From Antedon mediterranea (lineage: Eukaryota > Animalia > Echinodermata): a stretch of 64,000 bases of DNA. How positions within the stretch are numbered: the stretch's first letter is position 1; each line of letters opens with the position of its first letter. Below are positions 5,971 to 63,766 of this stretch, piece by piece. The notes beneath the pieces are model-generated. The model did not search any database, was not told where the DNA came from, and was given only the letters and a program-made list of their open reading frames with translations. The stretch covers positions 2,572,201 to 2,636,200 of the forward strand of contig NC_092679.1 of the NCBI RefSeq assembly GCF_964355755.1, given 5' to 3'. The translations under genes and the position numbers were made by a program.

Positions 5971-6515
5971 CCATAAATTGCATCTTTATCTCGTTTCTGA
6001 ATATCACTAACTCCACTTGAAACAGGGTTGATCATACTACTTGGGTGTGTTGGTGGGTAAAATTGTGAGGGTACAACTGGGGTATGATGACTGTTGAATT
6101 GATGGTGTACGGGCTGGCCGTAGCCCGCTGTGTAGTGTGGTCTCGGTGTATCGTACATAGCACTGGATGTTGTATCCATACTGCCATAGTGTGGGGGAAT
6201 CGGGTCTTCGTACTAAGAAAAAACAAAATACCTTACCGTATTATTTGAAGAAAATACTGCTTGCAGATAATACAATTAATTTTCCGTAATAAATAATCAT
6301 TAAAGCGTAGAGTCGCAGAAGAGAAATGCCTACAAAAGATCGCTTCTTACCACCATACTTAAATGCGTTAGCCCGGCTGCCAAGTAGATTTCCAAAGATA
6401 TGACGAGCTGAGAACCGCTAGGCCAGTCGTGCGCCAAGAGTACACAAGTATTAAATCGAGGATCAGAAAGTCAACGGCAACCGCATGTAGCAACTCAACT
6501 TACCCTTTGAGCCAT
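5971..6515 (-). CDS. MEIS: Meis/homothorax TALE homeobox gene, coding exons 1-2 (gene continues leftwards; no further exon recognised in 1-5970)
   Basis: Exon 1 (6504-6515) is ATG GCT CAA AGG|GTAAGT = MAQR. Exon 2 (5971-6212) is ttttttcttAG|YEDPIPPHYGSMDTT...DIQKRDKDAIYG|GTGAGT. The MAQRY start, KRDKDAIYG and both intron positions match the Meis N-terminus, just before the HPLFPLL MEINOX exon. Confidence 0.93.
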
Positions 6516-12096: not shown

Positions 12097-13111
<1,015 letters not shown>

Positions 13112-14263
13112 TTTTTCTGTGGATAGATGATGGTGAACGGTTTGTTTGTTGGTGGTGTATTCGCGTAAACTGGAAGGACGACCTCTGTCGTCAGAGCGTG
13201 CACGTACAATCAAAGAATATTCTTTGGTACAATTAACAAGAAGTTACCGTACAATTAATGAATGAAAAGATAAAATCAATTCACCATTGGATCAAACAAA
13301 TATTAGGCTAGAATAAGTAAGCTAACACTCTGAGAAAGAACAAAACACAACCAATAATATTCATTGTACAATATTTTATTTATTCACAGCATTCACATAA
13401 TTTATATATATAATGCCAATCATAGTCAAATCCGAAAAAAATATAGGCCTCGCCTACCGAGCGAAAGAAACGTGTTATGGGTTTAGGCTAGTTGAGAACT
13501 AAGCAAACATGATGTGTATTAAATTATTCAATTTTAAAATTATCGATTACCAGTTATTAATGGAATAAATCATTGTGAGACACAAAGTACAAACGCCATA
13601 TCAATATTTGAACGCGCGTAGGCCTACACTTCTGACGAATTTCCCACTAACTTTTGAAACAGAAATGTATGTAGGCCTATGATCGTGGAACAATATGCAA
13701 TTATTAGTATATATACATGTAGCACATAAGCGTATTAAAAAAGAATTTAAAGCGTGTAGACAATAATATACATGTAGGATAGTCTATCCTCCGGGATAAA
13801 AAAATTAAAATTATACACGTTGTCACATTTTTATTATATTATAATGCAAGTAGTGCGCATTTGTTGGATTTACAAAGGTGGAAGAACATGGTTTGCAAGT
13901 CCAAAACAAATCCAAAATAAAAAAAAACATACACAGACTTAAATAATTATAAATCTACCGTATTCCATGTGTCGAGGGAATTATTGGTGTAGGCCTACTC
14001 AACTTTAACCATGGAAAGTGTTTTATATTCAATACAGGATCAGACTAACCGGTAAATATATACACCACCAGAATTGGAGATTGCACATTTTGTCCGTTCT
14101 GTGCTTGTTACTTATAAAGGTTTTTTCCCGCCATTTTATCTATCACGTTATAAAACTGACGTCACAAGACATTGAATGACAATTGCACCTTGGCTGCTGC
14201 TATACAGGGGTTGTCATGGAAAGAACTACATTGAAGAAACATCAAAAGAACATTTTGACATTA

Positions 14264-14420
14264 TTACAATAAAGAGCATGTGGAAGATTTCTTCTTTGCT
14301 GGCTTTGCGTCAGTCTTCTTGGTATCAGCCTCTGGTTTGTCCTCTGCGTTTGACTCTTCCTTAGCTGCTGCCGCTGCTGCTGATTTCTCGGCTTCTTTGG
14401 CGGCAGCTTCTTCGGTACCA
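14264..14420 (-). CDS. AK: Alternative terminal exon of arginine kinase adding an Ala/Glu/Lys linker, polybasic patch and CaaX box (CSLL); long isoform 420 aa
   Basis: The donor CCA GC|GTGAGT (15118-15123) overlaps the canonical TGA. Acceptor atctttacAG at 14421-14422. The phase-2 join reads A-GTEEAAAKEAEKSAAAAAAKEESNAEDKPEADTKKTDAKPAKKKSSTCSLL followed by TAA TAA. Confidence 0.8.
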
Positions 14421-15119
14421 CTGTAAAGATAAATACAAATATAATTATAGTGATTAGGCCTAAAGACAAATTTGATTAATGTAATTATTGATATGGAGAG
14501 CTGAATAAAGGATCTTCTTCTTCTTTCTTTCTTTATTTCTAATCACAAAATCATAAACATACATAAATAATCATAGTACGAAGCAACAGAATGGAATATA
14601 TTGTAACTTAAAGTATCTTGATAAAATATAACTACATTGCTGCGGTTATTATGATAATGACTACGATTATGATCATGAAAATGATGATAAATGAGGTGGG
14701 TGGATAAAATATGATATAATTACGATTTGATGAAACATGCTATTAATTTTTGATTTCATAATAATTCATCCTGAGTCGTTAATAAATATAATTCATGGGG
14801 CCGGAATAATTTTCATTTTAGTCTGGTGTTCAATCATCCGTTTTACGAAAGTGAGGCACAAGAAATGTCGATCAATAATGTATATCTAATCACGAGTTCT
14901 ATTTCTAAAATCAATATGTAGGTAAAGCATATTTACCATTAGGCGAATTTGTTTGCGCGAATTGAAAGCGTCAGCTTATACGCATGCGTAGCGCGCGATT
15001 TGGAAGATGGAAACATGACTACGCATGCGTAGAAAGTGATCTGGAAGATGGAAACATGAATACGCATGCGTATAAGATGATATGTGGAAAATTGGTGTTA
15101 TAGTGTTAATAAACACAAC

Positions 15120-17951
15120 TCACGCTGGGACTATATCATCGATAGATTCCCCTTTCTCCAGCTTCTTCTCCATTTCAATTAACAATTTGACACCATCGAT
15201 GACCCGCTGGACTTGTTCAACCTCAGATGAACCAAGGCGATCAAGATTTGAAATGTCATATACTCCGCCGATAGATTCTGTAAATTCACCACCTAAAAGA
15301 AAAAAGTTTTTAATTTGTCAATTGATAGAGCGTGTCTAAACTTGAAGTCAGCTTCTGTCTAGGCCTATGGTTATAAAAAGTCAAACTATTATACAATATA
15401 GCCTACCAAGTGGTGGACCGTAGAGATTTCTTTCTCGCATTAGCATAGACCTAACTATGTTTTGTTCCATGCGCTCTGCACAAACGCTTCTAATTTTCAA
15501 GTTCTTCATATAACATTACCAGTGTCTATCAAGAAATACGTAAGTGGCACATGCATTTGAAAGCTCATTATCGCCACGTGCGTCAACTTTACGGGCGTCA
15601 CACTGACAATGTGCATTGTAATCCTATAGATTTGGTAGGCCTACTTACTCGTGCCACGTTTTTGTAAACGTAAACTTGTGCATATTGGTCCGAATCGTGA
15701 GTCCTTAGCCATGTAAGGAAGCTTAGCGTGGACACTACATCTGACACCAGTACCCAAGTTTGATGGACACGTTAGGATGAACCCTAAATGCTCGTTCCAC
15801 ATGAACTCTTTGCCTTCATTTTGGATATGTTTCTCCACCTGACAAACAAAATAGAATTTGAAATCCTTACCATCATAATAATATATATCTAGGCATAATA
15901 CTTTGAAGATCACTACTGTACAACCATGCATTTACAGCGTATTGATGTGTACACTATTGTATACTGTCTGCAGCTTTCCTATACCTCCTCCTTGCAATGC
16001 CGTTTCAATAACCATTGTTATTTCACTAGATATACTACTACTGTTGACATTAACACTTGTTGGCTTCTACAACAAGTAACTTCTGTTTCGTATTATCAAA
16101 ATAGTGAAAAACACATCATGAAAAATGTTTTAAAAATGTTGATTACTAGGCCTACTGTAACTTGATTCAATTCATGTACATACCTCTTTCAAACCTTTGC
16201 AGAAACGTTCAAAGACTGCCTTCATATTGCCTCCCTTTTCCATTGAAATGATTCGTGTATGGTCCTCCTCGTTGATCCAAACCAAGAAATTCTTTTCATC
16301 ATTGTGCCTTGAAAAAAGAAAAAATTGAAGAAGTGATTTATAATATTACACAGTAGACAAATACCGGACTTTCTCGCAGAACTAAAACCTCTTCCCAAAC
16401 CAGACTTTTCCTTTAAGTCCTTGACTGTTACTTTCATCAAAATAATCATCTTGTTATATCGTTATCATATAACATCTCTAGTTTATATATTTTATCTTAC
16501 CATATTCCACGTCCATCTGGGAAGTCACGTGCCATTCCACCACTTGTAAAATGGCGGGAAATTGGCTTTTCAAACAGAAAATGATCGTCAATCAGCTGCT
16601 GTTGGTCTTTTTCCTCCAGAGTTTGAAGTGAATAGTATTTTCCAGTAAGTTCATCTCCGAGCGCACATAACGCTAAACATAAAAACATAATATCAACTAT
16701 AGTGCATGGGGTAACAAACCATTGCATTACGCATGCGCAATTGCTTGCTGACTTTAGTAAGTAAATTCAACGAAGAGTTTATTAAGTTTACTTTCTGGAA
16801 AAAAGAAACCAAAGAAATCGCAGGCCTACCTTCTGAAACAAGTTTTTCAATTTGTCGTCTCTCAGATCGAGCCACATGTGGGGAGAGAGCAAATCCTTTA
16901 ATGTTTCGACCAGTTCGTATACGGGAACTGATAACGTAATCAGCGTCTAAAATATCATCACTCACTTTATCTGGCGTTAAGTCTGTCACGTGATTATCTA
17001 AAAGAAACGCAATTTGTGGATTAGCTATATATTCTGAGCAAATGTTTAGATTTGTTTGGGAATTGAAGTTGATATATTTTGTAGAGTGTCATGAGTCTAA
17101 AAGGTTGTCATGGATGAAGTGAAAAGAATCACTTCCTTCGAGGTTCAATAAAAGTTTTTTTATGTGGAAACACGTAAAGGTATTGAAGAATATGGAGTCT
17201 ACGTGGAAGAGTTTTGTTGTTTTTCGTTAGAAAATATCTTCATTTATTTATTCTGTCTAAAATTATCTTACAATTCTTAACGATAAGGCACAACACGTTA
17301 TACCGTGTCGTGTATTAAAAGTATTTAATATAGACAGACACGTATATGGATGACTTGCAATAGTCAGTTAAACTCTATCTAGTGATAGCTGCAGAATGTA
17401 TGTAACAGAAAGGATAAGTGACTCATGACTTCTTACCAGTTTTCTTGAAGCCATTGTGGTATTCTTCAATAACGGGATCGAATAACTCGGCGAAAACCAA
17501 GTAAGTTTCTTCATCTCCGGCCAAAAGTCCCAAATGAAAATCTATCAAAACAAAAAAAATGATATTAATATAAAAATGTTATGAGGCTACTACTAATGTT
17601 GTCCTAGGCCTAATAAACTTGGCAATCACAAGCACATAATACCGCAATTGTTTTGACATTTCAAGCAGAAACTGGAAAAGTGTATTCTTTAGAAGTTTAG
17701 AAGATGTTTTCCAGAAGTCGTCAATGGAAGAAGATCTGCATGACGTCAGATTCTCAAAAAATTACAAAAGTACCTGAATTGTCGACTCCATTTTGGATTG
17801 CCTTGTCTAAGGTATAACCAGACGGTGTTTCCACATCACGGAGTTTGCAGTATATCTCTTCCGTCAGGTATTTTGATAGAAGACTATGATGTCCCTGAAA
17901 GTTTGGAAAATCCTCCTTGGCATCGAAATTCTTCTGCATTAAATTCGCCAT
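15120..17951 (-). CDS. AK: Echinoderm-type (CK-derived, dimeric) arginine kinase, canonical isoform, 7 coding exons, 369 aa
   Basis: Exons 17774-17951, 17437-17541, 16830-16997, 16501-16672, 16184-16307, 15649-15838 and 15120-15292 are all GT-AG and in phase. Motifs: [43 protein letters not shown]. The short GS loop ([12 protein letters not shown]) and EEYHNGF resemble sea-cucumber AK rather than CK (DNPGHPFI..., RHGGY). Confidence 0.95.
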
Positions 17952-18485
17952 CGTGTTTTAAAATCTGAAAGAATGAACAGAACATTATCATTAAATACAA
18001 TACGTTGTCACGATTAAAAACTAAAATGTCTGGAGAACATACACATTAATGTAAAATTAATGTAACATTGCGAAAGTACCATCACATTAAAACAAAATCT
18101 CATGTATTATTACTTCTTATATTCAATTCACAAATGATGAAAATAAAATAACAAATTAATAGGATACTTCTATCCCCTTATATCTCCCTCGTTTTCAAAA
18201 TGAACGCTTTGCGCATGTCTCTTTAACGAAACCACCTTCATTGTAATCCTATTCCTAGCTAATTTTATAAGAACAGATCTATACCCTAATTAGCATATAT
18301 TATTCTGTCGTAAACTTAAGAGTTTTTGTCGGTTAGACTAAAGTACAGTTCTTTTATATAATTAAAAAGCTTAGCCAAATTAACGACCTGACTGGTAGTG
18401 TTGAAGTTCACAATATCTCTAATAATCCATAAAAAGACTTATATTCACACATTGGAACACACTTCTTACTTCAATTGTATGCAAA

Positions 18486-29553: not shown

Positions 29554-32046
29554 TTACAGCCACGACGCATTCGCCTCATCGTGGCCATTACCTGCCGATA
29601 TTACATTCGCGCTCGTCGGAACGATAGGCGCGGGCGGATCTCCATTTATTTCTACTTCAACGTTATTTTGCGCGGGTCTTGCACCATTAGGCTGTTGCAT
29701 AGTACTGTAAGTCGTGACTTGCTGTTTCGGCAACACGCAATCTTCATCTTTTTGTTGATTTTTATCTTTCACGGATATATGCACAACAGCGCCCTCTCTG
29801 CGGTACGCGACACCCTTTTGTGTCCATTTTCGTTCCATCATCGGAGGCTCGTCCGAGAACTGATCGGCGTCTTGTTCGCCATCTTCGTCACCACGTTCTT
29901 CGGAAAGAAGATCATCTTCTTGGATTCGTCTATTCTTTTCAATTATTCGTTTTCTATCACTAAAAAAAAAATCATAATTATTATTTATTAATAATAATTC
30001 ATTCGTAATTGAATACATTTTTAATGAAATAAAAACCGACACCCCATTCCTTTTAAGCTTGGTTTTCACTTTTGTACGCGCAATCAAGGCTGGCCAATCA
30101 CAAGCGATTGTTCGGAATACCCATTGCGATTGGTCAAATAACTTGCGTTGTCTCTTTCTTAAGCTTGGTTCTCAATAGCGACACAACGCAATACGCAACG
30201 TAAGTAAGTTGACTAATCACAAGCGAAGGATTATTCGAACAGTGGCTTGTCAATGGTCAACACGCTTGCGCTTTTTGTTGCGTTCTAGTGGGAACCACGC
30301 TTTAATCAAGAATAAAAATCTTACGATTTGACGCAATGGCAGTAAGAAGACATGAATCAAATGATTATAGGGTTGTCATTGGAATTTCAAGTGTAAAATT
30401 GGACTAAATTAAGTTAATATTGTCGGTAAAACCATTCACTGAGTAATAATTACGTCGATACCAAATATTGATATCCTAATTTCTTTTCAGACGATACATT
30501 GATTTTATATTTTACAGATATTGAAATTCTCGCTACGTTAGGTTTGAGCGTAACGATATTAAGCTCTGTCTACACTATCAAACTTTATGAAACAAAAAAG
30601 TGTGTGCCCAAATATGGTAGTGATGTGCTTAAACATGATAGTGATAAAACATTTGTTTTGTCACATAAAGTTTGATAGTGTAGACAGAGCTTTAGACAAG
30701 CTGCTCTCGCTATGCACGCATAAACCCTCCTGGAACCAAACTCCAAATTACCAATCAATTTACCTAATCAAGTATTGCTACCATTTGAATTATGTGAACT
30801 TAGCTTAAATAACAACTTTTCCCAACGACTTCAACGAAGAGTAAGAAGAACAGTAAGCTATAGAGGCGAAATTACTCCTGCGGCTAATTTATCATCTACA
30901 TATTGCAGCTAAAATTAGTCTCCAGATATGATTGATTACACGAGGGAGGCCCTGCAGAGAGTGCACTGAATTAAGGCAATGCATAAATAGGTAACTATTA
31001 CTATTTATATAGTCGCTTTAATTTAAACCTTTGAGTACACGAGATGATAAAAGACATTTTGAGAGGATAAACAAATCAAACATGTCCATGATTTTGAACA
31101 TGTCGTGCGCGGTTGTTAAACCCATTGAAATATGATATTATATTTTTAGCATGAAACTGCAGCGCAACAGTGGCATGACAACGCGAATGAGTTGACCAAT
31201 CACGACAGTCCGTAAAATCCATGTCGTGATTGGTCAAATCAAGTTGTTAAATTGTCCGACGTTATTTATTTGCGCGCTGCGTCTAAATGGCAAACCAATC
31301 TTAATTGCACGAGCGGAGAAACTTGCAAAGGGATCGCACGTAAAAGATCTCTTAAACCTAAGGTAAATCTCTTTCTGTGAGTCTTCTTCGTGATGGAGGA
31401 GTTTCTAACGAAGTACATTCATTTTACAAATATTGGAAAGCTGTACATTAAAAAAAAAACATGTAGTTATAATTAGCTCGTACATTACTGTCTTCATCTG
31501 CTCTTAAAAGGTTATGTTAATCAAGACGCTGTTTACACGTTCTCATTCACAAAATTCACAATTATCAATGTAAACGAAGACTTAATTATTCACCCCATAC
31601 GTTTAACGATATTATCCCCAATGCAAATGTTACATGATATGAATTCTACTCGTGTAAACGTACACTGATGTCTTCATCTTGCAACTCTTGCGACAAGTTT
31701 GTATCGAATATGTGAATTAATTATGCGAGTCGTGCCATTTAGAATTATGGATGGTTGATTTAGACGAAGTACGCCATAAAATAAAATAATTGAACACAAG
31801 CTTGACTATTCAAGATGAAAAAAAGCAGAATTGTGACTTGAATTTTTATAATGCTTGTTCAGGCATACGATTATATCGGTCGCGTTCAAGTCGGTCGCGA
31901 TAAAATCAATTTCTGGTATTTTGTATGGAACGCCGTTAGTTAAATAACTTACCCAATAAGTACTAAGCAAATGGCGATTAAAGAAGATCCTTGTACCCAA
32001 AGACGATGGTAAGTTAAACAATTATAATGATGATAATGATGATGTA

Positions 32047-39951: not shown

Positions 39952-49888
<9,937 letters not shown>

Positions 49889-51476: not shown

Positions 51477-52457
51477 TTATTCTAGTTCAACCGTCGGACC
51501 ATCGTAGGCCGCTACACCGTCTGTATTCGACCTCATGGTATTACTTTCAGTTTTAGTCATAGAGCACTTGCGCCTCAGGAAGCTGATAAGTGGCAAGTTA
51601 CTTATAGCGTGGTGGAAATCTGGAAGTTTCCTCCAGTAAATGAATGGGTTCAGGGCCGAGTTCATTAGGCCAAAATTGAGAAAAAAACATGCTAATTTAC
51701 TGGCGAAAAAACAGTGTCTAGATGCAAAGTAATACTCAACGCAGATGCGAATAGCTTCGAAACACCACGGCAACCAACAAACTCCAAAAACAACTACAAT
51801 TACAGCGTACGCGCGTACTACGAGATGCGTACGTTTAAAGTCACCTTTTCCACCTAATTTCTTCTGTCTCTTTTTGTCCATTTTCCGCATACTATAAAAT
51901 ATAGCAATATACAGACAAATCAAACTGATCATTGCCACTATAACACTGAACGGAGCGAATGTATAAAGAAGCAAAATGTAATAGTAAGGATAGGCAGTGA
52001 AAGGTAGAATAAACGATATCGTACAAATCCACATAAGTACGCAGAATATTATCAATTGTTTGGATGTAGCACCTCCACCAGGCGTCTTCGCTCTAACGAC
52101 AAGAATGTAGAATCTCTCCACGGCGATGGCAAGGTTCGTGAAGATCGAAATCTGTAGAAGAGCGACCGACATGCCATCCACGACGCTAGGTCGTCCGAAT
52201 ATCTGTATTGGCATCAGGCAACCTGTCGTGACGTCCGTAATGCACAGGCTGAATATCAAAATATACTTACGAGTTCGTAGTTTTTTGTTTGTTGCAAACG
52301 CCCAGAGAACAATGCCATTTCCAAAGAGAATCATAACGCTTATTATGACAAAGGATATCAAGTAGAGTAGGAGAAGATCTTTATCCTGGTAAATTGCTGT
52401 CTTTCTAATGTCAGGCAGCGTACAATTGCTCGGATCAAAGTCTGCCATGTCGTCCAT
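51477..52457 (-). CDS. Orphan rhodopsin-class (class A) GPCR, single coding exon, 326 aa
   Basis: Seven hydrophobic segments with GNxxV (TM1), SLCITD (TM2), ERF (DRY position), CWLPW (TM6) and NSALNPFIY (TM7). Confidence 0.93.
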   Translation of the reverse strand: MDDMADFDPSNCTLPDIRKTAIYQDKDLLLLYLISFVIISVMILFGNGIVLWAFATNKKLRTRKYILIFSLCITDVTTGCLMPIQIFGRPSVVDGMSVALLQISIFTNLAIAVERFYILVVRAKTPGGGATSKQLIIFCVLMWICTISFILPFTAYPYYYILLLYTFAPFSVIVAMISLICLYIAIFYSMRKMDKKRQKKLGGKGDFKRTHLVVRAYAVIVVVFGVCWLPWCFEAIRICVEYYFASRHCFFASKLACFFLNFGLMNSALNPFIYWRKLPDFHHAISNLPLISFLRRKCSMTKTESNTMRSNTDGVAAYDGPTVELE

Positions 52458-53217
52458 GTTAGTTTCTAAGTATTCACGCTAACTGTAAGAAATGAAAACA
52501 AGCAATGACAACAAATATTTAGCCAACGACTGAAAATTATTGAAATGTTATCGTCAAGGGGCCACCTAGCAATATTTGCGTTACACAGAGGATGATCGAC
52601 TATTTTAATCGTCTTAAACCAATAATCTTATTACAGCTGTACAAACTAAATTTAGTTTTCTCCGGCAGAAGTGTAAGTGGACCGGCAATATTGCTTAACC
52701 GGCCGCACCTTTTCCCGAAAATTAAATCTGATGTGATGACGTCAGATTTGATGTACATGTAGGCCTATAATAATCATCGCCTTGAACATGGATTATATAT
52801 TTTTTTGACTGATGTTAACGTTATGCTATCACAAATACGATTTTGTTTTTGTTTTTTCTAGAAAGTTGTACTTATTTATACAAGCAGCACTAACACAAGA
52901 AAGCATTCATCCTATATGGAACTATTTAATCTTATATATCAATTGCTACTAATCAATGATTAGAGAAGCACACAATTGTTCTTGGCTGCGAGAAATCTTT
53001 TTATTTGAACACTTTCTGGATGGAAGGCACCAAAAAGTTAGCTCTAGTGTCATGAAGCTTGGTTTCCCTAAAAATGGCAGAAATCGGTGAATTTAATCCT
53101 ACGGCACCGTGTTACGTGTCGTTGGTCCTATATGCCTATACTTGTGACATGTTTTACGACACCTTGTGTTGATACGTTGCGTCTATGAAACACCTACTTC
53201 ACAGTTTACTCTACTAA

Positions 53218-59784: not shown

Positions 59785-61167
59785 ATGCTTTGTTACCATG
59801 GAACTTCGTTAATTTTACGAAAAAGAATAGTACAAACTGTCGCTAGTCATGCAGGAAAGGTATGATTTTATTCATGGTGGTAATTTATGTACTATTGTTG
59901 AATAAAATTGAAAGTCTAGCCTAGGCCTACTACTACTAGCTAGGGCCAGGCTACTTACTTAGCTAGCTAGTAGGCAGGCCTAGACGAATCCTCTCTACTA
60001 CTATACTAGACTATTCTGTATTCAATTCACACAGGCCTGTATGTAGTAGGATACTAATCTATTATTAGACTTCTATAGGTTGGGCCCGGTCGGATATTTT
60101 GATATAAAATGTTAATATATGCTAAAAATAAAATTATATTTAATGTTATTGTGATAATATTTAATTGTACGTTTTATACATTTTTATTGTAAAAAACTGT
60201 CAAAATACTGATTAGATAGTAGGTTTATTCCGAAACTGAAGACCACCCACCCTCTGTGATAATTAATTTTTGGGGCATTGTGGCGTGACGCGAGATAGTT
60301 TTCTACAGTATTCATACTAGGCCTACACTGTACAGTCTTTAACTTTTGTGTTTGGTTTTTCAGGGAACCAATGCATTTTCTGAAAACGACAACACCACTC
60401 CCCCTTATTTCAGAAATAATGACTGGATTGGCCCCATAAACAAACTTTCTAATATTCGATTTATCGAATACAAGAGGACAGAAAATGAAAGCAATGTTGA
60501 AAGAGCATATCGGAATATGAAGGAAGACAATTTAAAGTGGAACCATGAGTTTTGGGAGGAACAAAACAAATGTTTTATAAAAGTAAATAATGTTGCGTTT
60601 TGATACAATAAAAACATCACCATTTATATATTTATATTAGACATGAAAAGAGAGGAGACCCATTCCCCACCATTTTCAACCAAATATATTATTATACACC
60701 CATTGTTGCTTGTTGATTTGTTTTACACTTTTAGGCCAAAGACCAATTCACAGCACAGATGTTCAAGCTAAAAGGAAGCAGTGTTGGCATGAATGAGGAT
60801 GGTTAGTGAAATTGCTATTTTATTGACATTACAGCTCAGCAAGAAATGATAGAGCAACATGGAAGGACACTTTTTATCATGTGCTTTGCTCTCAACCTTA
60901 ATTCAACCATTGAGGAAATATATAGATTTCCCCCATGATTCAACAGCCTAAATGTTAAGTTGTAAATTTCTCTTCTCGTCTTTATTTGCAGGAACAAAGA
61001 TGGTTTTATCAACTGATGAAATGGCTCAGTTTTATCGACTGTTTCTCGAGGAACAAAAAGAACGAATGACGAAGTATAACAAAGACTGGTACCGCAGGAA
61101 CGTGGCAACTATCTTACCAGGATTTAGAGTCTTTTTGCATCATGTTACAAAGAAATTGTTTTCATGA
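59785..61167 (+). CDS. COA8: Cytochrome c oxidase assembly factor 8 (APOPT1), 4 exons, 178 aa
   Basis: Exons 59785-59859, 60364-60582, 60735-60801 and 60992-61167. Motifs DWIGP..LSNIR, WNHEFWEEQN, EMAQFYRLFL, YNKDWYRRN. The N-terminus is basic and presequence-like; the exon 1 start is inferred. Confidence 0.9.
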
Positions 61168-62308: not shown

Positions 62309-63766
62309 TTATCTTGAGGTATTAACCTGCAAAAAAAACAAAAAACAACCCAATTTTATCAAAGTTTCATGCATATAAAAGTTATGAGCAGTTTGTCTAA
62401 GCGCAGAGCAACCGAGTATACTTACGATATCGTCAATTTTCATGATACTTCTGACTGTTTCTGAAGCGAGTTGAATTGCACTGATGGACACTAGGACAGG
62501 CTGGACAACGTTTTCATCAAGAATGTTCGTAATAGCCCCCTGAAACACAAACAAATCTTGGTATTTATTTAACACTAACCAAAGGGAGACTTTGAATAGG
62601 TAATTTTTAGTTTGAAAAAAGTTAACACTTTCGTAGGGAAAAAACCTCAAAAAATGTTTTCACTTATAAAATGACAAAATAAATGGTTAAATTCAGACAA
62701 AAATCTATTTTTTTTCGGAGGGAAAATATATCTTTAACATGAATGTGGTGCATCAGTGGTTCCTTGGGGATCTTCATTGTCAAAGATGACTTGGGGTTGG
62801 ATTGAGTATGCATCATTTGCACAACATATTCATCTATACATCCCATTTGATTAATAATTTGATTATTACTGACCTTTCTAACATTGATACCAGCGGCCGT
62901 TTCTCCATGGGCATGCCTATTCCTAAGATCTGTGACGACCGATATGGGATTCAATCCAGCATTCTCTGCCAGGGTCGACGGAATCACTTCCATAGCTTCT
63001 GCAAAAGCTCTAATACAATATGCTTCTAATCCCGACAGGCTTCTTGAGTACTCCATCAAACGGTAGGCAACTTCAATCTCCGGTGCTCCACCTCCTGCGA
63101 TCAATGCCCTGTTCTTGACAAGACATCGGATGACACAGAGAGCATCATGGATGGATCTCTCGGCCTCTTCCATAACCAGTTTATTGGAACCTCTTACTAA
63201 CACTGTGACAGTCTTGCCTGGATTAGCAGCACCTGTGACCTGTAAGAAAACAAATCCAACATCTTCTAAATCTATGATTTAATACCAGGATTAAGAGGAT
63301 ATAGGTGTACATTCTAGCAATAGCAAGTTTTTGCTTCAGGATAATAGAAAAAGGTTGATAAATAGATTACAAATGGAACGGTTTATACTGGCCTCATGCA
63401 CATATAATATTTTGTATCCTTCCGTCTACAATACCAACATCATATCAACACCATATTTAAGCATACCACTACCATATTTGGGCACATCAAACTAGTTTGA
63501 TAGTGTAGACGAAGCTTAAGCCTCGGAATTGTGCATCAGTGGTTCCTTGGGTAATCCACATTGTCTCCCCAAAAAGAAGAACTGAGATTTCGATTGAATA
63601 TGCATCATTTGCACAATATATTGTATCATTTATCTGTACAGCCATTCATTAATTTTACCTTAACAGCTTTGCTTGTGCCTGCAACAACCTCCTCTACTAA
63701 CTCAGCTTGAGCGAGCATATCAGGTTGGAAGTGATCAATGCTAGCAATCGGCTTGCAACCAATACT
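62309..63766 (-). CDS. CCT4: T-complex protein 1 subunit delta, last four coding exons (5' part lies beyond the window)
   Basis: Exons 63659-63766, 62874-63239, 62426-62539 and 62309-62326. Motifs [60 protein letters not shown]. Confidence 0.96.
62748..62822 (-). ncRNA. SNORD42: Box C/D snoRNA, SNORD42/U42-like (copy 1), in a CCT4 intron
   Basis: Reads GTGCA-AATGATG...ATGAAGA...CAAGGAACCA-CTGA-TGCAC: terminal stem, box C, C'-like box and box D. The guide AAGGAACCA is complementary to 18S UGGUUCCUU, as in vertebrate U42. Confidence 0.85.
63420..63516. mobile_element. MITE family B copy in a CCT4 intron
   Basis: ttccgtctacaat...catatttgggcacatcaaactagtttgatagtgtagacgaagct. Confidence 0.7.
63529..63616 (-). 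ncRNA. SNORD42: Box C/D snoRNA, SNORD42/U42-like (copy 2), in a CCT4 intron
   Basis: TTGTGCA-AATGATG...CCAAGGAACCA-CTGA-TGCACAA. Confidence 0.85.

What the first reader, a model, noticed from the sequence alone, without database searches (positions are those of the whole stretch)
14264..15125. Splice switch predicted to give arginine kinase a prenylated, membrane-anchored isoform (polybasic + CaaX tail)
Seen in sequence: the canonical AK ends ...DDIVPA-TGA, but those bases read CCA GC|GTGAGT, a consensus 5' splice site overlapping the stop. About 700 nt downstream an acceptor (tttatctttacAG) opens a 157-nt GC-richer island. In exactly the required phase it reads GTEEAAAKEAEKSAAAAAAKEESNAEDKPEADTKKTDAKPAKKKSSTCSLL-TAA-TAA. 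The ORF track shows only a different frame. An AATAAA on - at 14532-14537 inside the intron could terminate the short form. Established: C-a-a-L is a geranylgeranyltransferase-I substrate, and an adjacent Lys patch is the K-Ras4B/Rho-type second signal for plasma-membrane binding. The lipid-anchored phosphagen kinase I recall (sea-urchin flagellar CK) uses N-myristoylation. Inference: one gene yields a soluble 369-aa enzyme and a 420-aa enzyme tethered by a flexible linker, buffering ATP at membranes (ion pumps, cilia, cortex). In a dimeric enzyme, mixed dimers could also anchor the soluble form. I am not aware of a described CaaX phosphagen kinase, but I cannot search the literature here.
Basis: partly seen in the sequence, partly recalled or inferred. 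Interest (0 to 1): 0.88.

Follow-up and report, generated by a model that had tools for sequence, protein, structure and literature searches.

The report
Feather-star arginine kinase with lipid-anchor tail
This feather-star gene splices in a last exon that gives the energy-buffering enzyme arginine kinase a tail predicted to be lipid-modified and membrane-binding, a signal already published for a related feather star; no short soluble form was seen from this gene, whereas sea stars make both forms from one gene.

Summary
The tail exon is real but known; the switch is unsupported for this gene. The 15124-to-14420 junction stands in a fully spliced contig of an RNA-like run. The 420-aa product is identical to RefSeq XP_071961909.1 (Antedon mediterranea) and 386/420 identical to Tropiometra AK1, whose 2015 paper is titled as the first prenylation signal in metazoan phosphagen kinases (title seen). 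No short transcript or protein of this gene was found. A stop over the donor is automatic for phase-2 GTRA donors (intron 4 does the same), and the intronic AATAAA is expected by chance (P=0.71). Crinoids get a tail-less enzyme from a second gene, AK2. The lysine-rich CaaX tail occurs in 14 named species of all five echinoderm classes. The switch does exist elsewhere: 5 of 5 named sea-star and brittle-star species have long and short products of one gene. In a sea-star mRNA the short form differs by 9 nt beginning GTAAGT, which points to tandem splice donors, not intronic polyadenylation. Ten literature searches found no description of that. Prenylation itself is untested.

The parts
17774..17951 (-). 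Coding exon 1 of arginine kinase AK1 (ATG at 17951; acceptor at 17965, a further 204 nt of 5' sequence come from upstream and were not placed)
   Evidence: (contig piece 17774-17965 = record 205-396)
17437..17541 (-). Coding exon 2
   Evidence: (joints 17541/17774 and 16997/17437)
16830..16997 (-). Coding exon 3
16501..16672 (-). Coding exon 4; its phase-2 donor also reads into an immediate stop (control for the stop-over-donor argument)
16184..16307 (-). Coding exon 5 (WINEEDH motif)
15649..15838 (-). Coding exon 6 (CPSNLGTG motif)
15124..15292 (-). Coding exon 7, end of the catalytic core
14421..15123 (-). Intron 7, 703 nt, phase 2, donor GTGAGT; further GTs at +5, +8, +10 are non-consensus; holds a multi-copy repeat (about 14930-15085) and a chance-level AATAAA (14537-14532)
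14264..14420 (-). Coding exon 8: 51-aa tail, Ala/Glu/Lys linker, KKK patch, CSLL CaaX box, stop
   Evidence: model identical to P0121
13446..14263 (-). Likely 3' UTR (X1 pieces 14196-14263, 14032-14191, 13446-13927; AATAAA at 13835, 13384, 13380; end not fixed)
   Evidence: the pieces are separate contigs, so continuity is inferred

Best explanation
This is the feather-star AK1 gene, an arginine kinase of the creatine-kinase-derived echinoderm family whose eighth coding exon is spliced in, likely constitutively, and adds a 51-residue tail predicted to be geranylgeranylated and to hold the enzyme on membranes. Shown: exon structure, junction in a spliced contig, 420-aa product, conserved Lys patch and Cys-x-x-Leu end. 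Inferred from established CaaX biology: GGTase-I adds C20 to Cys417, the last three residues are clipped and the end methylated, and four nearby lysines add affinity for acidic membranes, so that ATP is regenerated from phosphoarginine next to membrane ATPases. The soluble enzyme likely comes from the separate tail-less gene AK2, not from this locus. Sea stars and brittle stars instead make both forms from one gene, likely by choosing between two donors 8-9 nt apart.
For: Junction 15124/14420 in X1, the only joint over intron 7. Model identical to XP_071961909.1, 420/420; 386/420 to Tropiometra AK1 with the same last 17 residues, 379 identities to Anneissia AK1. Crinoid AK1 clade 100/100 on core columns alone. 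35 of 241 fetched proteins end in C-x-x-x, all echinoderm AKs, 33 of 35 ending in Leu; 3-4 basic residues in the 10 before the Cys in 20 of 20 counted, while the linker length runs from 28 to 65 aa. All 24 crinoid, sea-cucumber and urchin AK1 sequences that reach the C-terminus carry the tail. Tail-less paralogues named in 8 of the 9 crinoid, urchin and sea-cucumber species with a tailed gene; AK2 is about 80% identical and not in this window. RAC2 CSLL listed as 20-carbon prenylated (PMC7674641). The urchin orthologue XP_786080.3 is listed with 2 peptides in a cholesterol-enriched cortical-vesicle membrane gel spot (PMC6958363; weak).
Against: Only one RNA-like run was available, its RNA status is the tool's guess (supported by seven spliced introns), and assembled contigs drop rare variants, so a minor short form is not excluded. 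The used donor is the weakest of the seven by U1 match (5 of 11). No call tests prenylation or location. The urchin gel spot is shared with mitochondrial ATP synthase beta and the table is rich in mitochondrial proteins. Whether AK1 and AK2 split once in the echinoderm ancestor is unresolved: AK1 clade 95/95 with tail columns but 56/89 without, and class-wise duplication is not rejected (p-AU 0.063 and 0.172).
Confidence: 0.8

Rival explanations
1. One reading: this gene makes a 369-aa soluble form by reading through the intron-7 donor and ending at the intronic AATAAA (14537-14532), alongside the 420-aa form.
For: The reading frame allows it, and the product would end exactly where tail-less AK2 and outgroup creatine kinases end. 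The donor is comparatively weak.
Against: X1 has no piece over 14421-14948 or 15077-15123 and a contig joins across the intron. Stop-over-donor and AATAAA are both chance-level. The AATAAA lies only 111 nt before the acceptor and is followed by a purine run rather than a GU/U-rich element (the element is established knowledge). No short member in the cluster, 0 of 2. Where short forms exist (sea star L003) they still splice to the tail exon.
Confidence: 0.06
2. This gene makes a minor or tissue-restricted 369-aa form through a nearby second donor (+5, +8 or +10 in intron 7), as sea stars likely do; the stop would lie 0-5 nt before the last junction and so escape nonsense-mediated decay.
For: A GT stands at +10, the same 9-nt offset as in the sea-star mRNA; any of the three donors gives the 369-aa protein. 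Assemblers collapse such small bubbles.
Against: The three sites read GTTGTG, GTGTTT and GTTTAT, none with the GTRAG core that both brittle-star-like donors in L002 have; U1 matches 3, 5 and 3 of 11. No second joint or insertion in X1 at a 1% threshold. No short product among 24 AK1 sequences of crinoids, urchins and sea cucumbers.
Confidence: 0.12
3. The tail is prenylated but targets endomembranes, vesicles or cilia (through a prenyl-carrier route) rather than the plasma membrane, or it cycles on and off membranes.
For: Only 3-4 basic residues precede the Cys and the whole tail has net charge -1; the one proteomic trace is in secretory-vesicle membranes. This is compatible with the best explanation and only changes the address.
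Against: No localisation data either way; a dimer would carry two lipid anchors (dimer inferred from the sea-cucumber relative), which favours stable binding.
Confidence: 0.35

Closest known systems
Tropiometra afra macrodiscus arginine kinase 1 (BAS02800.1; Chouno et al. 2015, Comp Biochem Physiol B 187:55, PMID 25964010)
   Same: 420 aa, 386/420 identical, same 51-aa extension and identical end; same AK1 clade. The paper's title reports the first prenylation signal in metazoan phosphagen kinases. That the extension lies on its own exon is recalled from the abstract, not seen.
   Different: Middle of the linker differs. The paper was not held, so whether it covers other classes or isoforms is unknown to me.
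RefSeq XP_071961909.1 'arginine kinase-like' (Antedon mediterranea)
   Same: Identical, 420/420: the tail exon is already part of the public gene model.
   Different: The name shown carries no mention of the CaaX end; no short isoform appears in its cluster.
Apostichopus (Stichopus) japonicus dimeric arginine kinase (Q9XY07; PDB 3JU5/3JU6)
   Same: 298/369 identical core, best solved-structure match for exon 6; same short guanidino-specificity loop.
   Different: No tail; it groups with the tail-less genes. The same species has a separate 434-aa gene ending CTLI.
Sea-star and brittle-star AK isoforms X1/X2 (Asterias rubens, A. amurensis, Acanthaster planci, Patiria miniata, Amphiura filiformis)
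   Same: Same junction position and Lys-patch plus CaaX end (CVAL, CIAL, CDLL).
   Different: One gene gives both long and short products; in L003 the short mRNA has 9 extra nt carrying the stop and keeps the tail exon as UTR. Not seen for the window gene.
RAC2 and other GGTase-I substrates; K-Ras4A/4B-type alternative C-termini
   Same: Identical CSLL box in RAC2; basic patch before the Cys.
   Different: A metabolic enzyme with a 28-65 aa spacer, not a GTPase; K-Ras4B has a longer lysine run and a farnesyl group (recalled).

Membership tests
Creatine-kinase-derived echinoderm arginine kinase | ATP:guanido phosphotransferase N- and C-terminal domains | tested here: met
   PF02807 94.4 bits and PF00217 255.1 bits, above cut-offs
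Creatine-kinase-derived echinoderm arginine kinase | Catalytic NEED and CPSNLGT motifs intact | tested here: met
   Alignment A1; role of the motifs is established knowledge
Creatine-kinase-derived echinoderm arginine kinase | Shortened guanidino-specificity loop and Tyr where creatine kinases have Arg | tested here: met
   4-column gap against three creatine kinases and EEYHN against xRH; meaning for substrate choice is recalled
Creatine-kinase-derived echinoderm arginine kinase | One clade with the characterised sea-cucumber enzyme, apart from creatine kinases | tested here: met
   100/100 in both trees
Creatine-kinase-derived echinoderm arginine kinase | Arginine-specific activity | not testable with these tools
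   Inferred from 92% identity to Tropiometra AK1
Creatine-kinase-derived echinoderm arginine kinase | Homodimer | not tested
   Reported for echinoderm AKs in PMC11492440; no complex was predicted here
Tropiometra-type AK1 with prenylation signal | About 50-aa C-terminal extension ending in a CaaX box, orthologous to Tropiometra AK1 | tested here: met
   51 aa, CSLL, crinoid AK1 clade 100/100 on core columns
GGTase-I (CaaX-Leu) substrate | Cys fourth from the end, aliphatic a2, terminal Leu; tetrapeptide known from a proven substrate | tested here: met
   CSLL; a1 is Ser, as in RAC2, listed as 20C
GGTase-I (CaaX-Leu) substrate | Second membrane signal (basic patch) next to the Cys, C-terminus exposed | tested here: met
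   4 Lys in the 10 preceding residues; residues 392-420 pLDDT under 50
GGTase-I (CaaX-Leu) substrate | Actual prenylation and membrane binding | not testable with these tools
   No assay; only a weak proteomic trace for the urchin orthologue
Intronic-polyadenylation switch (soluble versus anchored) | Transcripts reading into the intron and ending at an intronic poly(A) site | tested here: inconclusive
   None in X1, where a contig joins across the intron; one run, contigs only; signal at chance level
Tandem 5' splice-site switch (sea-star type) | Second consensus donor within about 10 nt | tested here: not met
   Window: GTTGTG, GTGTTT, GTTTAT; L002 has GTAAGG and GTAAGC 8 nt apart
Tandem 5' splice-site switch (sea-star type) | Short product of the same gene on record | tested here: not met
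   0 of 2 cluster members; 0 of 24 AK1 sequences outside Asterozoa, against pairs in 5 of 5 named asterozoan species

The most novel reading that the evidence does not exclude
Echinoderms as a whole keep a membrane-anchored and a soluble arginine kinase, and reach this in two ways: feather stars, urchins and sea cucumbers use two linked genes, whereas sea stars and brittle stars use one gene with two 5' splice sites only 8-9 nt apart, so that a 9-nt choice puts the lipid anchor on or off. The tail exon arose when the ancestral creatine-kinase stop (last codon ending in G, then TAA) was captured as a splice donor. The feather-star gene may keep a faint remnant of that switch.
Probability: 0.5. 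Interest if true: 0.5.

Novelty: already known. Interest (0 to 1): 0.28.

Why it matters
For this gene the result is ordinary: a 92%-identical orthologue with the same signal was published in 2015 and the public gene model already holds the exon. What could matter is the wider pattern found on the way. A CaaX tail conserved in all five echinoderm classes argues that ATP buffering at membranes is under selection, and the sea-star gene offers a simple, testable nine-nucleotide splice choice between an anchored and a soluble enzyme in oocytes and embryos that are standard laboratory material.

Tried and rejected
No RNA holder on record was listed for the stretch; X1 is RNA by the tool's guess only. 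No whole genome is held for the window, so AK2 was judged from named proteins and a tblastn of the window, which shows one AK locus only. Chouno et al. 2015 could not be read by PubMed id or DOI. Ten paper searches: only PMC6429109 holds 'arginine kinase' with 'prenylation' or 'Tropiometra', in its reference list and a table; none of the listed titles concerns echinoderm AK isoforms; a 2024 AK review has 0 hits for 'prenyl'. Subscription papers are missing from the library and no supplements were read, so absence from print is not shown. Earlier scan notes: nothing. Other acceptors in intron 7: those in frame with the tail (14522-14513, 14459) have weak pyrimidine tracts or no RNA support. X1 depth over 14930-15085 comes from a multi-copy repeat seen equally in the other three runs, not from intron retention. 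My motif count missed the urchin AK1 genes (GEFTEG); they appear among the 'others' and were added by hand. The degenerate scan found only 6 loci, none crinoid, and cannot match urchin AK1. A single ancient AK1/AK2 split could not be shown. The four differences between X1 and the window's coding exons (two silent, L74S, A386V) were taken as alleles, not editing. No complex prediction was run.

Full report
Observation. The gene lies on the minus strand with eight coding exons from 17951 to 14264; the spliced product is 420 aa and read-through at the intron-7 donor would give 369 aa. Exon 8 is 157 nt, GC 0.49 against 0.29-0.38 in the introns. Among 487 acceptor-like sites in the window read in the same phase, 5 end in a CaaX-like word and only this one has a basic patch before the Cys.

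The junction is used. Five runs hold the stretch, none on record as RNA; four were laid. X2-X4 cover introns and exons alike. X1 holds one 1549-nt contig at depth 100.5 with all seven introns removed, including the 703-nt skip from 15124 to 14420 with GT..AG ends and 167-169 letters on the shorter side. Further X1 pieces cover 14032-14191 and 13446-13927, the likely 3' UTR. At 97% likeness X1 has no piece over 14421-14948 or 15077-15123 and no second joint; the pieces at 14949-15076 are short matches in a repeat that is multi-copy in the other runs too. This is one run of contigs, which drop rare variants, so it shows the long form and does not prove the short one absent.

The two hints for a short form are uninformative. 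A phase-2 donor reads nnG then TAA, TGA or TAG whenever it begins GTAA, GTGA or GTAG, so the stop over the donor is the default; intron 4 of this gene, the other phase-2 intron, also stops after one residue. AATAAA occurs 113 times on this strand of the window, giving P = 0.71 for at least one in 703 nt, and introns 2 and 3 hold it as well.

Identity. The model is identical to P0121, RefSeq XP_071961909.1 of the feather star Antedon mediterranea, 386/420 identical to Tropiometra AK1 (BAS02800.1) and has 379 identities with Anneissia XP_033121064.1, all ending KKKSSTCSLL. It has both phosphagen-kinase domains, intact catalytic motifs and the short specificity loop of echinoderm arginine kinases; the best solved match for exon 6 is the sea-cucumber dimeric enzyme 3JU5. 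AlphaFold2 on a 31-row alignment gives mean pLDDT 80.7, a helix over 371-393 with falling confidence and pLDDT under 50 from 392 to 420.

Prior description. The reference list of PMC6429109 (passages seen) cites Chouno et al. [quoted passage not shown] I saw only this title; the paper is not held. That it describes an extension of about 50 aa on its own exon ending in CSLL, and that a Paramecium arginine kinase also carries a prenylation signal, is recalled. A table passage in PMC7674641 lists RAC2, ending CSLL, as 20-carbon prenylated. Passages of the review PMC11492440 confirm dimeric echinoderm AKs and hold no mention of prenylation. Table 1 of PMC6958363 lists the urchin orthologue XP_786080.3 (P0144, ends CNLL) with 2 peptides in a cholesterol-enriched cortical-vesicle membrane spot, shared with mitochondrial ATP synthase beta, so this is weak.

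Conservation. Of 241 fetched proteins 35 end in C-x-x-x; all are echinoderm arginine kinases, 33 end in Leu and 2 in Ile; 20 of 20 counted have 3-4 basic residues in the 10 before the Cys, and their tails run from 28 to 65 aa. The rows are redundant; named species number 14 and cover all five classes. Conservation of the end with free drift of the spacer is what selection on a prenylation signal predicts.

Where the soluble enzyme comes from. In crinoids, urchins and sea cucumbers all 24 AK1 sequences that reach the C-terminus carry the tail, and 8 of the 9 named species also have a separate tail-less gene in my set (Strongylocentrotus is the exception). Crinoid AK2 is about 80% identical to AK1 and is not in this window. 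In five species the two genes are listed on contigs of the same length, so likely the same chromosome. In sea stars and brittle stars, 5 of 5 named species have long and short products identical up to the junction, and an unnamed pair differs only at the last shared residue, Lys against Asn, as a phase-2 donor predicts. Locus L003, an intron-less sea-star mRNA with a poly(A) end, encodes the 373-aa form; nine extra bases, GTAAGTAAT, carry the stop, the tail exon follows as UTR, and leaving the nine out gives the 402-aa Asterias rubens protein exactly. The insert starts with a near-perfect donor and no placement of it ends in AG, so tandem donors are the likely cause; the sea-star genomic sequence was not seen. 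L002, a brittle-star-like genomic piece, has GTAAGG and GTAAGC 8 nt apart at the same place. The window has GTs at +5, +8 and +10, none of consensus type, each of which would give the 369-aa protein.

History. Echinoderm AKs form one clade (100/100). With tail columns AK1 of crinoids, sea cucumbers and urchins groups at 95/95; on the core alone the best tree keeps that group at only 56/89, with the asterozoan gene as its sister at 69/80, and class-wise duplication is not rejected (p-AU 0.063 for crinoids, 0.172 for urchins). Two outgroup creatine kinases and most tail-less AKs end at the residue where the tail joins, mostly in Lys or Gln, which fits, but does not show, capture of the old stop as a donor.

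Mechanism and verdict. Shown: exon, junction, product, conserved signal. Inferred: geranylgeranylation of Cys417, membrane binding helped by four lysines, local ATP regeneration. Likely (about 0.8): the tail is constitutive here and AK2 supplies the soluble enzyme; mixed AK1/AK2 dimers are possible but untested. The finding as given is already known in its real part and unsupported in its novel part. The by-product, a pan-echinoderm anchor with a one-gene tandem-donor switch in sea stars and brittle stars, was not found in ten searches of an open-access library, though both isoforms already stand in RefSeq and subscription papers and supplements were not seen.

Noticed in passing
L003:1240-1248; P0125-P0128, P0130, P0134/P0089, P0214/P0195, P0213/P0191, P0217/P0065: Sea stars and brittle stars make tailed and tail-less arginine kinase from one gene; in L003 the difference is a 9-nt insert starting with a consensus donor, the tail exon staying as 3' UTR.
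   Followed up: yes
L002 (minus strand, positions 1116 and 1124 counted along that strand): Brittle-star-like genomic piece with two GTAAG donors 8 nt apart after the last core exon; the tail exon is not within the 504 nt held.
   Followed up: partly
P0125, P0126, P0139, P0221, P0049: Some sea-star, sea-cucumber and urchin AK isoforms have 29-43 extra N-terminal residues, in Asterias rubens rich in Ser and Arg like a mitochondrial targeting peptide (impression, not tested). The window gene has an in-frame stop 9 nt before its ATG, so no such extension through that acceptor.
   Followed up: no
(contig lengths): Tailed and tail-less paralogues are listed on contigs of equal length in Antedon, Apostichopus, two Lytechinus and Diadema setosum, so likely on one chromosome.
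   Followed up: no
window 14930-15085: Multi-copy interspersed repeat with three internal copies of about 43 nt inside intron 7; a second repeat lies near 17336-17397.
   Followed up: partly
window 14370, 15237, 17499, 17823: X1 differs from the window at four coding positions (A386V, L74S, two silent); likely alleles of another individual.
   Followed up: partly
window 12103-13243 (-): Two-exon gene directly downstream, weak LURAP match (E 2e-4, below cut-off), FAM89-like by recall; covered by X1 at 13000-13173.
   Followed up: partly
window 51483-52478 (-), 62670-63278 (-), 44973-47364 (-), 60343-61164 (+), 5973-6212 (-), 29560-30171 (-): Other genes: single-exon rhodopsin-family receptor, TCP-1 chaperonin subunit, GDSL lipase, COA8; a Meis-like piece (recall, no Pfam hit) and a 204-aa ORF without a family hit.
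   Followed up: no
P0211, P0212: Amphiura has a second, split AK-like model on the same contig, without the tail.
   Followed up: no
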